Below are positions 1 through 51,748 of a DNA stretch of 64,000 nucleotides, one piece after another. This DNA is from Alphaproteobacteria bacterium (lineage in GTDB: Bacteria; Pseudomonadota; Alphaproteobacteria; SP197), in assembly GCA_964291265.2 (NCBI GenBank), contig OZ219747.1, forward strand, positions 2,592,001-2,656,000, read 5' to 3'. A program made the translations under genes and the position numbers. How positions within the stretch are numbered: the first letter of the stretch is position 1; every line of letters begins with the position of its first letter. The notes under the pieces are model-generated. The model saw only the letters and a list, made by a program, of their open reading frames with translations, was not told the DNA's origin and ran no database searches.

Positions 1-756
<756 letters not shown>

Positions 757-785
757 CCTTGCGAGTGAGCGAAGGAGACACCCTC

Positions 786-1076
786 ATGGCCCTCACCCCT
801 GCCGAGAAGCAGCGCCGTTATCGGGAACGCCGCAAGGCCGGCATCCCTGCCGTCCACCACCGAAAGCCCTGCGACCGTCGTTCCCGTGCGCAACGCTGGC
901 GCGATGCGGTGGCCGAGCTCGGTGCATTGCAGGAGCATTATCGAGACTGTCTCGACAGTCTTCCCGACTCCCTGCGCGACACGGCTTACGGAGAACGTCT
1001 GCAGATCATCGTCGAGGCCGACATCGAGGCTCTCGAGGAGATCGAACCGCCGCGCGGCTACGGACGGGACACATGA
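786..1076 (+). CDS. Accessory 96-aa basic protein inside IS110 (MALTPAEKQRRYRERRK...)
   Basis: RBS GAAGGAG at 771-777, ATG at 786; Arg-rich N-terminal helix; present in both IS110 copies. Confidence 0.7.
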   Translation: MALTPAEKQRRYRERRKAGIPAVHHRKPCDRRSRAQRWRDAVAELGALQEHYRDCLDSLPDSLRDTAYGERLQIIVEADIEALEEIEPPRGYGRDT

Positions 1077-1330
1077 CACCTGGAACCCCCTTGATCACGG
1101 TAACGTTACCATGCCCGGGGACGCTGGGCGGCAAGGTGGCCGCGCTCATCGGTAACGTTACCGTGATCAATGGACGGCAACTCGCTCATGCCGCCGGGAC
1201 GCATGACACCTGGAACTTCATCAAACACGGTAACGTTACCATGTCCGGGAACGCCGGCGGCAAAGCGACCGCACTCGCCGGTAACGTTACCATGATCAAT
1301 GGACAACAACCCGCCCATGCCGCCGGGACC
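1066..1330. repeat. Two ~130-bp tandem units with four GGTAACGTTACC palindromes (IS110 right region)
   Basis: Palindromes at 1099-1110, 1151-1162, 1229-1240 and 1280-1291; perfect 20-bp inverted repeat 1091-1110/1151-1170. Confidence 0.92.
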
Positions 1331-1459
1331 ACAAGCTGCATGTCGCCTCGCTCGCAGGACAAGAACATCGACAAGGCGGAACCCCAGACCGCTGTGGACA
1401 ACCACAGAAAACATCACCACGGACACCCGCAAAAAACCTTGCCGGGAAACATGGATGCT

Positions 1460-1809
1460 GGCTCAGACCCGTCGTCGCCTTCGATCCATACCATGCCGCC
1501 ATCAATATCTCCGACGCAAACCGCCCCGATGGCCAGCATGTAGAGTGCCCCTCCTACAATGTCAAGCGCATATCTCCAGAGGATTGGAAAGGCAGCCAAC
1601 CGCTGTGGATGATTGCATCATCACGGGGACAAAACCTGGCCATATAAGGCCGGAACGTGGAGCTGAAGACGAAGATCGATCCGCTTCTTGTCAGTCGGAA
1701 CACGCACATCCGATCATCGGAAGCGAGCAAGTGAAGGCGGCAAGAGACAATGCCGGATTCGAACCCGTCAGGAAAAACGATCCGTCATCAGTAGGGGGTG
1801 AGTAGTTAC
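1460..1809 (-). mobile_element. IS66-MTase element copy A (visible terminal part with MTase 5' fragment)
   Basis: Matches 13292-13641; TIR GGGGTGAGTAGTTAC ends at 1809; encodes MMAAWYGSKATTGLS up to the IS110 junction. Confidence 0.9.
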
Positions 1810-2633
1810 CCCGGTTCCATGAGGTCCCTTCGACGCTCCGGGGTCATCGACCATGGCAGCCACGGGTCGAGGTCATCCGGCGGCTTGCCGCCGTTCTGCG
1901 CGCAGGCCTCAAGCCACTCATGAAGCCAGCGCCGAACATTGATGTTGTTCATGGCAAGGGTGCCGATGACCGAGTACATGATGGCGGTGAAGGCGGCGCC
2001 TTCCTCGCTGTCGGAGCCGAAGCTCAGCTTTCTCGCGGTCACCGCACCCCGGAGGGTTCTCTCGGCAAAGTTGTTGTCCATGGGCACCTGGGGATGGTCG
2101 ACAAAGACGCACAGTCCCTCGCGGTGACGGATCAGGGAACGCAAGGGCTTCGCTTCGCGTGCACCCTCGGGCAAGGCGTCGAGTTCCTCCTGAGCCTGCC
2201 TGAACAGCGCCTCGACAGCCGCACGAAGGTCCTTCTGCAGGGCATTGAACCTCGCTGACTGACGCTTGCGTGCGGGATCGTAGTGCTTCAGCCGTTGCCC
2301 ATTCAGTGTGTAGATCAGCGCGATCCTGTCGAGCCACTTGTCGCACCACTCTTCCAGCCCCTCTTGGCCTGCCGCAGCCTCGATCACATCGCGCCTGGAG
2401 TGCGCCCAGCAAAGGCAGAGGATCACCTTGCCATCAAGCTCACGCTCCAGTTTCCTGTAGACCGCGTAGCGATCGCAGACAAGGAAGACGGTGCCTTCGG
2501 TGGAGGCGAACAGCACCATGGCCACCCGGGTGCTGCGTGACGGGTCGATAAGGAAGAAGACGGAGTCGGCGCTGACCGCGGTCCACAGCCAGGCCTTCTG
2601 CGAGCGCCCCGAGGCCTTGAGGGACTGGATGCG
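1806..2633 (-). pseudogene. tnpC: IS66 TnpC C-terminal half (RIQSLK...CWAH...DNNFAERTLR)
   Basis: IS66 motifs CDRY, CWAHSRR and DNN.AER; joins in frame to DETSW at 6519 once 2634-6518 is removed. Confidence 0.9.
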
Positions 2634-2769
2634 GTGTGCCAGCATCCATGTTTCCCGGCAAGGTTTTTTGCGGGTGTCCGTGGTGATGTTTTCTGTGGTT
2701 GTCCACAGCGGTCTGGGGTTCCGCCTTGTCGATGTTCTTGTCCTGCGAGCGAGGCGACATGCAGCTTGT

Positions 2770-3034
2770 GGTCCCGGCGGCATGGGCGGGTTGTTGTCCA
2801 TTGATCATGGTAACGTTACCGGCGAGTGCGGTCGCTTTGCCGCCGGCGTTCCCGGACATGGTAACGTTACCGTGTTTGATGAAGTTCCAGGTGTCATGCG
2901 TCCCGGCGGCATGAGCGAGTTGCCGTCCATTGATCACGGTAACGTTACCGATGAGCGCGGCCACCTTGCCGCCCAGCGTCCCCGGGCATGGTAACGTTAC
3001 CGTGATCAAGGGGGTTCCAGGTGTCATGTGTCCC
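2770..3034. repeat. Palindrome array of IS110 copy 2
   Basis: Mirror image of 1066-1330. Confidence 0.9.
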
Positions 3035-3314
3035 GTCCGTAGCCGCGCGGCGGTTCGATCTCCTCGAGAGCCTCGATGTCGGCCTCGACGATGATCTGCA
3101 GACGTTCTCCGTAAGCCGTGTCGCGCAGGGAGTCGGGAAGACTGTCGAGACAGTCTCGATAATGCTCCTGCAATGCACCGAGCTCGGCCACCGCATCGCG
3201 CCAGCGTTGCGCACGGGAACGACGGTCGCAGGGCTTTCGGTGGTGGACGGCAGGGATGCCGGCCTTGCGGCGTTCCCGATAACGGCGCTGCTTCTCGGCA
3301 GGGGTGAGGGCCAT
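3024..3314 (-). CDS. Accessory 96-aa protein inside IS110 copy 2
   Basis: Same as 786-1076. Confidence 0.7.
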   Translation of the reverse strand: MALTPAEKQRRYRERRKAGIPAVHHRKPCDRRSRAQRWRDAVAELGALQEHYRDCLDSLPDSLRDTAYGERLQIIVEADIEALEEIEPPRGYGRDT

Positions 3315-3343
3315 GAGGGTGTCTCCTTCGCTCACTCGCAAGG

Positions 3344-4495
<1,152 letters not shown>

Positions 4496-4958
4496 TCTCT
4501 GCAACCATAGACCGGGCCCTCTCCCACAGTCGGGGTTGTCCACATTTTCCCGCCGCCAACCGCTGTGGATGATTGCATCATCACGGGGACAAAACCTGGT
4601 CATATAAGGCGAACTGGCGGAAGGTAGGGGGTGAAAGTCCCCTGAAACGAAGGAGTAACCAAACCACGTTTCTCCGCGAGCCGTGCGTCGGTTCCCGCGA
4701 GGGGGCAGGCGAAGCGTCGGTAGCGGTACGGATGGGCAGGGCTAATGAGCACCGAAAAGTCCGTTGTTCGGGGTGCCGAGGCTTTCGCATCGGTCGAAGG
4801 CAACATCGCAGGCATCGATTTGGTGAGATGTCGGCGAGCCCCGCGGTGTCGGAGAACCCATGCACGTCCGCACGCCTTCTGTTGGGACCCTGGGAGGTCT
4901 TCGAACTATCCCGCCTGTCGTGGCGGGACCGTGTAGGGAAAGGAGAAAGCCGAAGCCT

Positions 4959-13337: not shown

Positions 13338-13894
13338 TATCTCCGACGCAAACCGCCCCGATGGCCAGCATGTAGAGTGCCCCTCCTACAATGTCAAGCG
13401 CATATCTCCAGAGGATTGGAAAGGCAGCCAACCGCTGTGGATGATTGCATCATCACGGGGACAAAACCTGGCCATATAAGGCCGGAACGTGGAGCTGAAG
13501 ACGAAGATCGATCCGCTTCTTGTCAGTCGGAACACGCACATCCGATCATCGGAAGCGAGCAAGTGAAGGCGGCAAGAGACAATGCCGGATTCGAACCCGT
13601 CAGGAAAAACGATCCGTCATCAGTAGGGGGTGAGTAGTTACCGCAGGTGTACGATCAAGGGGGGACCATGACGCACATATCCCGGGTCTCGCCGGCATTC
13701 GCTCAGTTCCATGATGCCTCGGTCACTGCGTGACCGAACGCTTACGATTGTCGGCCTGCACGAAACACATGAAACCCTGCGTCACGGGCTGACGGAGCAC
13801 CTTGCAGACGGGGGCGACTTGGTGGAAAGTGAGCGTTGCCCGCCGGTCGCTGTGCCGGGTGGCTGCATGCCGTCGACTTCAGGGAGCACCTGTC

Positions 13895-50362: not shown

Positions 50363-51748
50363 TCAGGGCCGGGTCAGGGCGTTGATGGCCTCGCGACGGT
50401 CCAGTTGTAGGCGGCGCCGGGTTTCGGCGAGGCTTTCGGCCTCGCGGCGGTTGGCGAAGATCACCGCGAGCGCGATGTTGTTGAGGCTGGCCCGGTTCGC
50501 CGGGCCGTTGTCGGTGCGGGTCAGGCAGGCGTCTTCGCCGAAGACGCAATCCCTTTGTCGATGGTTCAGATTTTCCACGGCCCAGTGGCGGCGGTTCAGT
50601 CGCAACAACTCTTCCGGCGACGTGGCCCCCGTATCGAGAGAGGTGATGATGTAATCGGTTTCCGTGTAATCCTTCTCTTCTTGCTTCCCGGCATCGCCGG
50701 AGCCTTTCTTCCCGGCATCGCCGGGGCCTTTCTTCCCGGCATCGCCGGGGCCTTTCTTCCCGGCATCGCCGGGGCCTTTCTTCCCGGCATCGCCGGGGCC
50801 TTTCTTCCCGGCATCGCCGGAGCCTTCCTTCCCGGCATCGCCGGGGCCTTCCTTCCCGGCATCGCCGGAGCCTTCCTTCCCGGCATCGCCGGGGCCTTCC
50901 TTCCCGGCATCGCCGGAGCCTTTCTTCCACGGCTCCCGATAGCGGGTGATGCGGGCGACCTGACGGACGCCCGGATAGTTGATCAGACCGTCCAACGGGA
51001 CGAGGACGCTGATCGAACGCTGCTCCAGTCGACCGTGCGCCTTGTCGAACGGCTCCGTGAAGTGGCCGGTAGCGTCTTTTTGCCAATTGATGCTGTCGAG
51101 GATGGCGAAGGTCTCCGGAGCGTTGCCCTTGACGACGAAGACGTAATCCGCGCGTTGTGTGATCAGCTTTGCGGTATGGCGTGTCGTGTGCAGCGCGTCG
51201 AGGGTGATCACCTTGCCGCCGATGTCGCTGCGCTCCAGGAGATCGTGCATGGCCGCCAGTTCGCCGCCTTCGTCGTTGAAGTTCAGGAGGGAAAAGGGCG
51301 CGCCGGTCTCATGGTCGACAAGGGCCACGGTCTCGTGACGGCCATCGCCGTTGCGGTTGGCGCCGCGGATGCGCTTGCCGTCGGCGGCGAGTGCACGGGC
51401 GAGGTGAAGCCGAGGCCGGGACCAGCGGGTGAGCACATCCTCCAGAGCCTCGGGGTCGATCGACTGGATAACCCGGTGGATGGTGGACTTGGAGACGGGC
51501 TCGCGAAGCCCCGTCTTCGGGTTAAGCCACGCGCCGATGGCCTCCAACTCCTCCTGGGACAGGGACCGCGCGAACTGCGCGGCGGCGACACAGCCCTTCA
51601 TGTTGGCGAACTCGGCGAGCACGTGCACGGTGAGCACCGATGCCGCGGTATGCTTCCTTCCCTGCGCCCGGCGGAAGTCGGGAATGGCCGCGCTTAAGCG
51701 TAGAGCGAGCGCAGCACCTTGGGGTCCCGGGGCGCCAGTTCGGGGCAT
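50363..51748 (-). CDS. ISAs1 transposase (start uncertain; probably once fused to the upstream DUF4338 ORF)
   Basis: PDFRR..G.KH, DGK, DALHT, VKGN, HGR.E, HWAVEN and D..FGED motifs. Confidence 0.88.
   Translation of the reverse strand: MPRTGAPGPQGAALALRLSAAIPDFRRAQGRKHTAASVLTVHVLAEFANMKGCVAAAQFARSLSQEELEAIGAWLNPKTGLREPVSKSTIHRVIQSIDPEALEDVLTRWSRPRLHLARALAADGKRIRGANRNGDGRHETVALVDHETGAPFSLLNFNDEGGELAAMHDLLERSDIGGKVITLDALHTTRHTAKLITQRADYVFVVKGNAPETFAILDSINWQKDATGHFTEPFDKAHGRLEQRSISVLVPLDGLINYPGVRQVARITRYREPWKKGSGDAGKEGPGDAGKEGSGDAGKEGPGDAGKEGSGDAGKKGPGDAGKKGPGDAGKKGPGDAGKKGPGDAGKKGSGDAGKQEEKDYTETDYIITSLDTGATSPEELLRLNRRHWAVENLNHRQRDCVFGEDACLTRTDNGPANRASLNNIALAVIFANRREAESLAETRRRLQLDRREAINALTRP
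50684..50923. repeat. 10 x 24-bp in-frame VNTR (GDAGK[K/E]G[P/S])
   Basis: Unit CTTCCCGGCATCGCCGGRGCCTTY, counted directly. Confidence 0.95.

What the first reader, a model, noticed from the sequence alone, without database searches (positions are those of the whole stretch)
757..1076. IS110 carries a second, accessory ORF
Seen: both copies have a 96-aa ORF with a strong RBS directly after the recombinase and inside the CT-defined ends. It has an Arg-rich N-terminus (AEKQRRYRERRK), an acidic helical C-half and a PPRGYGRD tail. Established: characterised IS110 elements usually encode only the recombinase and the RNA. Inference: it could be a directionality factor, regulator or DNA-binding partner, making this a three-component bridge system.
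Basis: partly seen in the sequence, partly recalled or inferred. Interest (0 to 1): 0.75.

Follow-up and report, generated by a model that had tools for sequence, protein, structure and literature searches.

The report
Portable regulator cassette riding on IS110
The extra gene is real and lies inside this RNA-guided jumping gene, but it belongs to an undescribed family that rides on several unrelated jumping genes together with its own short palindromic DNA site, so it is likely a portable DNA-binding regulator picked up as cargo rather than a third part of the RNA-guided machine.

Summary
Observation confirmed. The 96-aa ORF is at 786-1076, under purifying selection, inside CT-core ends fixed by empty sites, in all 4 genome copies. 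The element already has a normal recombinase and a predicted left-end bridge RNA whose guides match its target and donor.

The ORF is not IS110-specific. This genome has 36 further full-length homologues (76-79%) in an IS21 element. Among 105 de-duplicated loci the upstream partner is IS21 in 43, IS110 in 22, IS66 in 5, IS3 in 2. IS110 relatives at 32-46% identity lack it (0 of 22).

New here: a palindrome GTNACGTNAC flanks the gene in 84 of 105 loci (shuffles 0.34; background 1 of 2189 windows). It usually sits just before the ribosome site; this element has four copies just behind the gene.

Best reading: a basic-helix, probably dimeric DNA-binding repressor plus operator, swapped between insertion-sequence families, probably acting as negative feedback. 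Binding and function are untested. The scan met what appears to be this family before, as the third gene of an IS21 (e1-776560).

The parts
786..1076 (+). ORF96, copy A: basic N-terminal helix, helical hairpin, PPRGYGRD tail; predicted DNA-binding regulator
772..777 (+). Ribosome-binding site AAGGAG of ORF96
   Evidence: sequence; GGAG conserved before homologues on IS110, IS21 and IS66
1..756 (+). IS110 recombinase, copy A (5' part lies outside the window)
1099..1110 (+). Palindrome GGTAACGTTACC no. 1 (predicted operator), just after the ORF96 stop
1151..1162 (+). Palindrome no. 2
1229..1240 (+). Palindrome no. 3 (second unit of a ~130-bp tandem duplication)
1280..1291 (+). Palindrome no. 4
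1077..1459 (+). Right non-coding end of copy A, ending in the CT core (1458-1459)
2641..4608 (-). Complete IS110 element, copy B, core CT to core CT
3344..4291 (-). IS110 recombinase, copy B, 315 aa (Pfam DEDD_Tnp_IS110 + Transposase_20)
3024..3314 (-). ORF96, copy B (identical to copy A)
2809..3001 (.). Four palindromes of copy B (10-mer cores at 2810, 2861, 2939, 2991)
4290..4470 (-). Predicted bridge RNA in the left end: 5' hairpin, target-binding loop (guides about 4415-4407 and 4391-4383), donor-binding loop (about 4342-4335 and 4314-4309)
   Evidence: z = -3.14; guides compared by eye with the target and donor

Best explanation
ORF96 is likely a small DNA-binding repressor that travels with its predicted operator, the palindrome GTNACGTNAC, as a portable cassette found on IS21, IS110, IS66 and IS3 elements, and this IS110 lineage probably picked it up as cargo while its recombination would still need only the recombinase and the left-end bridge RNA. 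Shown: the gene, its place inside the element, its spread over unrelated IS families, and its tight positional link to the palindrome. Inferred: a dimer whose AE(R/K)QxRYR helices each read one half-site. In the usual layout the site lies about 20 nt before the start codon, so the protein would repress its own transcript and whatever follows it (tnpC in IS66, istB in one IS21, the right-end RNA in another IS110 group). In this lineage the sites lie behind the gene. In the excised circle they would sit upstream of the bridge RNA and recombinase, so the most likely role is negative feedback on the element's own expression. That last step is the weakest.
For: Partners of 105 de-duplicated loci (from 158 near-full-length matches): IS21 43, IS110 22, IS66 5, IS3 2, other 8, none assigned 25. 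Of 80 metagenome loci: IS21 34, IS110 16. Own genome: 36 of 41 full-length homologues are in a 5.3-kb IS21, 4 in IS110, 1 unassigned. Exact palindrome within 150 nt upstream in 66 of 102 loci and downstream in 17 of 97; either side 84 of 105; background 1 of 2189 windows. Dinucleotide shuffles: mean 0.34, max 2. After clustering at 70%: 24 of 31. ORF-less IS110 loci: 0 of 13. All 8 matches in the 64-kb window lie just behind the two ORFs (chance 0.5). Genome-wide, 24 of 27 GGTNACGTNACC sites and 72 of 75 sites of a 2-bp-longer variant lie within 400 nt of a homologue. Helix type tracks site type: AERQARYR with CGT(T/G/C)ACGT(A/C/G)ACG, AEKQRRYR with GGTAACGTTACC. In the recombinase tree the ORF-bearing clade nests among ORF-less relatives. 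In the ORF tree the IS110 label needs 11 changes, at least 7 forced by well-supported branches.
Against: No binding or expression data. The model matches no known DNA-binding fold and no Pfam, NCBIfam or named PHROG family. The sites here lie 167-348 nt inside the right end, so they would not overlap a junction promoter. The palindrome is almost absent more than 600 nt from the ORF, so there is no operator at transposase promoters; in most IS21s the protein could then only repress itself. The bare 10-mer is not rare: 28 of 53 genome sites are far from any homologue. The helix-site covariation rests on two clades, which is one event. The AU test did not reject a single clade for IS110-linked ORFs (p = 0.116 despite a log-likelihood drop of 394). 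The ORF or a fragment is kept in 31 of 33 loci of the close IS110 clade, although those genomes were picked because they hold the ORF.
Confidence: 0.6

Rival explanations
1. The protein binds the palindrome only to limit its own level; its real job, through the invariant PPRGYGRD tail, is to bind a host factor (anti-defence, anti-silencing or replication/repair helper) that benefits any insertion sequence.
For: The tail and the DRRS..QRW motif are as conserved as the basic helix. In many IS21s it is the last gene with nothing downstream to regulate; a recurring ATTGACA motif, likely the IS21 right end, lies within 300 nt in 17 of 38 IstB loci. It is independent of transposase chemistry. It also occurs in non-IS contexts (L078-L083, L258-L261).
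Against: No family or fold match points to such a function. Four sites in tandem behind the gene suggest the site itself is under selection here.
Confidence: 0.22
2. It is a true third component of this bridge system: a directionality factor or recombinase partner.
For: Directly behind the recombinase with a strong RBS. Kept in 31 of 33 close-clade loci. Also found with distant IS110 groups; in one it lies between the recombinase and a conserved right-end non-coding region.
Against: Proteins 76-79% identical serve an IS21 in the same genome, and sister proteins sit on IS21 and IS66. ORF-less IS110 relatives are present in several intact copies per genome. The bridge RNA is complete and matches target and donor. 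IS621 is described as working with one recombinase plus RNA (PMC11208160, passages; Hu et al. 2026 preprint, passages).
Confidence: 0.07
3. A selfish or neutral hitch-hiker: an autoregulated gene with no effect on transposition, spread by boundary shifts and recombination among abundant IS.
For: IS110 elements are reported to expand with cargo through flexible boundaries (10.64898/2026.08.14.744561, section 9). Decayed fragments occur.
Against: Purifying selection. Placement is non-random, mostly right behind a transposition gene on the same strand, including between tnpB and tnpC and between istA and istB.
Confidence: 0.11

Closest known systems
IS621-type IS110 bridge recombination system (Durrant et al. 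2024, PMC11208160; passages read)
   Same: DEDD + Tnp20 recombinase, CT core, left-end RNA with target- and donor-binding loops whose guides include the core.
   Different: About 1.97 kb instead of about 1.3 kb; a conserved 96-aa gene and four 12-bp palindromes lie between the recombinase and the right end.
Cargo-bearing expanded IS110 elements (Hu et al., bioRxiv 10.64898/2026.08.14.744561; abstract, passages and section 9 read; supplements closed)
   Same: Extra coding DNA inside IS110 ends, plausibly gained by boundary shifts.
   Different: That cargo is mostly plasmid-derived resistance DNA. Here it is one small conserved gene with its own site, shared with IS21, IS66 and IS3. The terms 'IS21', 'regulator' and 'DNA-binding' do not occur in that main text.
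IS21 elements with extra genes (istA-istB plus passenger)
   Same: The commonest home of this family is directly behind istB.
   Different: No named family covers the protein; my paper searches found no description.
Eukaryotic bZIP basic region with CRE (TGACGTCA) / PAR (TTACGTAA) sites (recalled from memory, not from a call)
   Same: Arg-rich helix and an ACGT-centred palindrome (commonest sites CGTTACGTAACG and CGTGACGTCACG).
   Different: No leucine-zipper continuation: the basic helix (5-17) is followed by a basic linker and a helical hairpin. No Pfam bZIP hit. An analogy only.

Membership tests
IS110 family, IS621-like (the host element) | DEDD RuvC-like plus Transposase_20 recombinase | tested here: met
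   PF01548 E=4e-24, PF02371 E=2e-17
IS110 family, IS621-like (the host element) | Short core shared by target and donor, no terminal inverted repeats needed | tested here: met
   Empty sites TCGC-CT-GGC[A/T]CA and four filled sites
IS110 family, IS621-like (the host element) | Bridge RNA with two internal loops guiding target and donor | tested here: met
   Predicted fold z=-3.14; right target guide 9/9 with three insertions, left 7/9; left donor 8/9, right donor 5 nt including the core (by eye). The RNA itself was not observed.
IS110 family, IS621-like (the host element) | Circular intermediate with junction promoter | tested here: inconclusive
   No circle joint listed in 3 contig-only runs; no sigma70 site in the linear element; the joined ends were only inspected by eye
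Dedicated third component of IS110 (directionality factor / partner) | Exclusive genomic link to the cognate recombinase family | tested here: not met
   IS110 is the upstream partner in 22 of 105 loci, IS21 in 43; 36 vs 4 copies in the own genome
Dedicated third component of IS110 (directionality factor / partner) | Present across the recombinase's relatives | tested here: not met
   0 of 22 loci with flanking room at 32-46% identity (3 further loci had no room); 31 of 33 in the >=72% clade
Dedicated third component of IS110 (directionality factor / partner) | Physical contact with the recombinase or effect on direction | not testable with these tools
Autoregulated DNA-binding repressor with cognate operator | Conserved palindrome at a fixed position beside the gene | tested here: met
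   84 of 105 loci vs shuffle mean 0.34
Autoregulated DNA-binding repressor with cognate operator | Sequence-specific binding and repression | not testable with these tools
   Needs EMSA and reporter assay
bZIP | Basic region continuous with a leucine zipper | tested here: not met
   Model breaks after residue 17; hairpin from 34; no Pfam hit

The most novel reading that the evidence does not exclude
ORF96 and its palindrome are an undescribed, family-independent control switch for insertion sequences: a bacterial basic-helix repressor with a CRE/PAR-like site that IS21, IS110, IS66 and IS3 exchange, and that gates transposase and bridge-RNA expression, for example from the circular intermediate. 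It would be a natural protein regulator of a bridge-RNA system.
Probability: 0.25. Interest if true: 0.75.

Novelty: new variant of a known kind. Interest (0 to 1): 0.47.

Why it matters
It removes the claim of a three-component bridge system, and exposes a widespread unnamed protein family with a predicted binding site that can be tested directly. If the cassette regulates transposition, it would be one regulatory module shared by DDE and RNA-guided insertion sequences, and a possible natural on/off control for bridge recombinases. The basic-helix/ACGT-palindrome pairing also bears on bZIP-like DNA recognition in bacteria.

Tried and rejected
Wrong-frame searches (start 787) gave nothing and were repeated in the right frame. 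No family: Pfam (best E=0.93); NCBIfam (none for the query); PHROGs (only unnamed families; phrog_10506 hits 35 of 48 members, for the query over residues 2-30); PDB sequences; ESM Atlas (only hypothetical clusters). No fold match: Foldseek PDB and BFVD 0 at E<=0.001; VIA best Z 6.4, generic helical hairpins. No match in PLSDB plasmids or INPHARED phages. The family is rare in a class-wide sample: 4 of 401 genomes including this one. Longer forms: 40 proteins, mostly singletons; 5 carry IstB, 2 IS110 and 1 Tn3 Pfam domains, likely read-throughs. Co-folding with the recombinase or as a dimer: tool not available, so no verdict. No RNA holder listed. No circle junction in contigs. Rejected: that the ORF belongs to a neighbouring element outside the IS110 (empty sites). 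The word 'sponge' in my notebook was a guess; the small-share runs do not establish a habitat. Paper searches found no description of this family or site. The site string was one of four terms and had 0 occurrences in the 12 papers listed. The library lacks most subscription papers, and bioRxiv supplements (e.g. the cargo tables of Hu et al.) were closed.

Full report
OBSERVATION. The ORF runs from ATG 786 to TGA 1076 (96 aa), 29 nt after the stop of an IS110 recombinase (Pfam DEDD_Tnp_IS110 and Transposase_20), with AAGGAG at 772-777. A second copy is inverted at 3024-3314, and the genome holds four identical elements. Comparing filled and empty sites gives a CT core and the target TCGC-CT-GGC[A/T]CA; copy B spans 2641-4608, so the ORF lies inside. 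It is a genuine gene: 1415 homologues, 903 cluster representatives, and dN/dS 0.10-0.26 in 16 of 17 comparisons. The outlier L016 is most likely mis-registered by my script.

THE BRIDGE SYSTEM IS ALREADY COMPLETE. The 181 nt before the recombinase fold into a hairpin plus two stem-loops with internal loops (z = -3.14). By eye, the first loop carries guides matching the left and right target (7/9 and 9/9 for three of the four insertions). The second matches the element's own right end (8/9) and left end (5 nt including the core), as described for IS621 (PMC11208160, passages). Nothing is missing that a third protein must supply.

THE GENE IS NOT IS110-SPECIFIC. Of 41 full-length homologues in this genome, 4 follow the IS110 recombinase, 36 (76-79% identical) follow a Toprim gene inside a 5.3-kb IS21, and 1 is unassigned. 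I classified loci by the nearest same-strand gene within 600 nt upstream. Of 80 metagenome loci: IS21 34, IS110 16, IS66 4, IS3 3, six single others, 17 unassigned (7 with little room). Of 76 GTDB loci, which are biased to close relatives: IS110 32, IS21 21, IS66 8, RT 1, 14 unassigned. After keeping 158 near-full-length matches and de-duplicating at 90% to 105: IS21 43, IS110 22, IS66 5, IS3 2, other 8, none 25. These are top-scoring loci, not a random sample, and some single labels come from queries taken from the same locus. The gene also sits between tnpB and tnpC (L085, L087, L090) and between istA and istB (L153).

THE CONVERSE TEST. 25 loci of IS110 relatives at 32-46% identity from 16 genomes lacked the ORF (0 of 22 with flanking room). 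Among loci at 72% or more, 31 of 33 kept it whole or as a fragment; those genomes were selected for holding it. In the recombinase tree (quick method, 33 rows) the ORF-bearing clade nests among ORF-less relatives, and the other ORF-bearing IS110s are only 24-41% identical, some over short alignments. In the ORF tree (102 rows, 95 columns, bootstrap not fully settled) the IS110 label needs 11 changes, at least 7 forced, and is never one group in 200 bootstrap trees. The AU test, however, did not reject one clade (p = 0.116). The link to IS110 does recur inside elements. In a distant group the ORF lies between the recombinase and a conserved downstream non-coding region, likely an IS1111-type right-end RNA (not tested further). 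In genome G275 several copies share about 180-200 nt after the ORF before diverging.

A COGNATE PALINDROME. GTNACGTNAC lies within 150 nt upstream in 66 of 102 loci, peaking about 20 nt before the likely start codon and just ahead of the RBS. It lies downstream in 17 of 97, peaking at +27 to +31; either side 84 of 105. Background was 1 of 2189 windows, shuffles gave a mean of 0.34, and the count at 70% clustering was 24 of 31; 0 of 13 ORF-less IS110 loci had it. It is independent of the partner: upstream in 33 of 41 IstB, 12 of 22 IS110 (plus 8 downstream), 4 of 5 IS66 and 2 of 2 IS3 loci. In the window all 8 matches lie behind the two ORFs. In the genome, 24 of 27 GGTNACGTNACC sites and 72 of 75 sites of a 2-bp-longer variant (the IS21 copies) are within 400 nt of a homologue, while 28 of 53 bare 10-mers are scattered. 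AERQARYR-type proteins go with CGT..ACG sites and AEKQRRYR-type with GGTAACGTTACC, but this is a two-clade contrast. Three distant viral hits that share only the N-terminal helix have GTAACG/CGTTAC repeats just before the matched helix.

PROTEIN. The AlphaFold model (pLDDT 86, pTM 0.57) has a basic helix 5-17, an extended basic linker, a hairpin 34-84 and a low-confidence tail. There is no family or fold match. Many members begin with MPRGR(K/Q)P, which resembles an AT-hook (recalled). The resemblance of helix and site to bZIP-CRE/PAR recognition is recalled and is an analogy only.

MECHANISM. Shown: a real gene, inside the IS, shuffled among IS families with a fixed palindrome. Inferred: a dimer binds the palindrome and represses. 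In the usual layout this is autorepression plus repression of downstream IS genes. Here, four sites follow the gene in a 130-bp duplication. IS3, IS21 and IS110 are listed as forming circles (10.1101/2023.06.07.543989, passages; IS66 is not mentioned there). In a circle these sites would precede the bridge RNA and recombinase, which gives a feedback route. Against this, they are 167-348 nt from the end, no sigma70 promoter was found, and no operator lies at transposase promoters. I put 0.6 on the regulator-cassette reading, 0.22 on a host-directed function with autoregulation, 0.11 on a hitch-hiker and 0.07 on a true third bridge component.

WHAT IS KNOWN. Cargo-bearing IS110s have been reported (10.64898/2026.08.14.744561; abstract, passages, section 9), so a second gene in an IS110 is not in itself new. 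PMC11187229 (passages) mentions no IS110 accessory ORF. PMC8141618 (search listing only) mentions a hed gene for IS900. Seven paper searches found no description of this family or its site; closed supplements may bear on this. An earlier AI note of this scan (e1-776560), found by sequence similarity, reported a small third gene of an IS21 that also rides on unrelated elements. It agrees with my reading but is not independent support.

VERDICT. A real feature and an ordinary two-component IS110, carrying an undescribed portable gene-plus-operator cassette. New variant of a known kind; interest 0.47.

Noticed in passing
G000:C2 (e.g. L167); 5326-bp element: A highly amplified IS21 (about 30 near-full copies) with a Cys-rich gene, istA, istB, a Toprim gene, an ORF96 homologue and a duplicate of its C-terminal half; its palindrome is 2 bp longer (GGTCACGCGTTACC / GGTAACGCGTGACC).
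   Followed up: partly
window 4609-4700 and 2600-2640: Three of four IS110 copies sit at the same site at one end of a multicopy group II intron element (over 25 empty copies of the site in the genome), matching the right target guide 9/9; the fourth is in a DNA-methylase-like ORF of another repeated element.
   Followed up: partly
window 1592-1650 and 13424-13482: The first ~59 nt of the IS110 left end recur in another repeated element in about a dozen places in the genome.
   Followed up: no
L125, L128, L134, L136, L142, L147, L123: A distant IS110 group has a strongly conserved ~250-nt non-coding region after the ORF96 homologue, likely a right-end bridge/seek RNA.
   Followed up: partly
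L046, L056, L069, L091, L092, L126: A recurring insert with a large serine recombinase and an HTH_17 gene interrupts istB shortly upstream of the ORF in several unrelated samples.
   Followed up: no
L268, L269, L271: Viral-contig genes sharing only the ALTPAEKQRRYR-type helix carry arrays of GTAACG/CGTTAC repeats just before it.
   Followed up: no
window 1806-2640: An IS66 transposase fragment lies between the two inverted IS110 copies.
   Followed up: no
window 50632-50991: A tandem array of a 24-bp unit.
   Followed up: no
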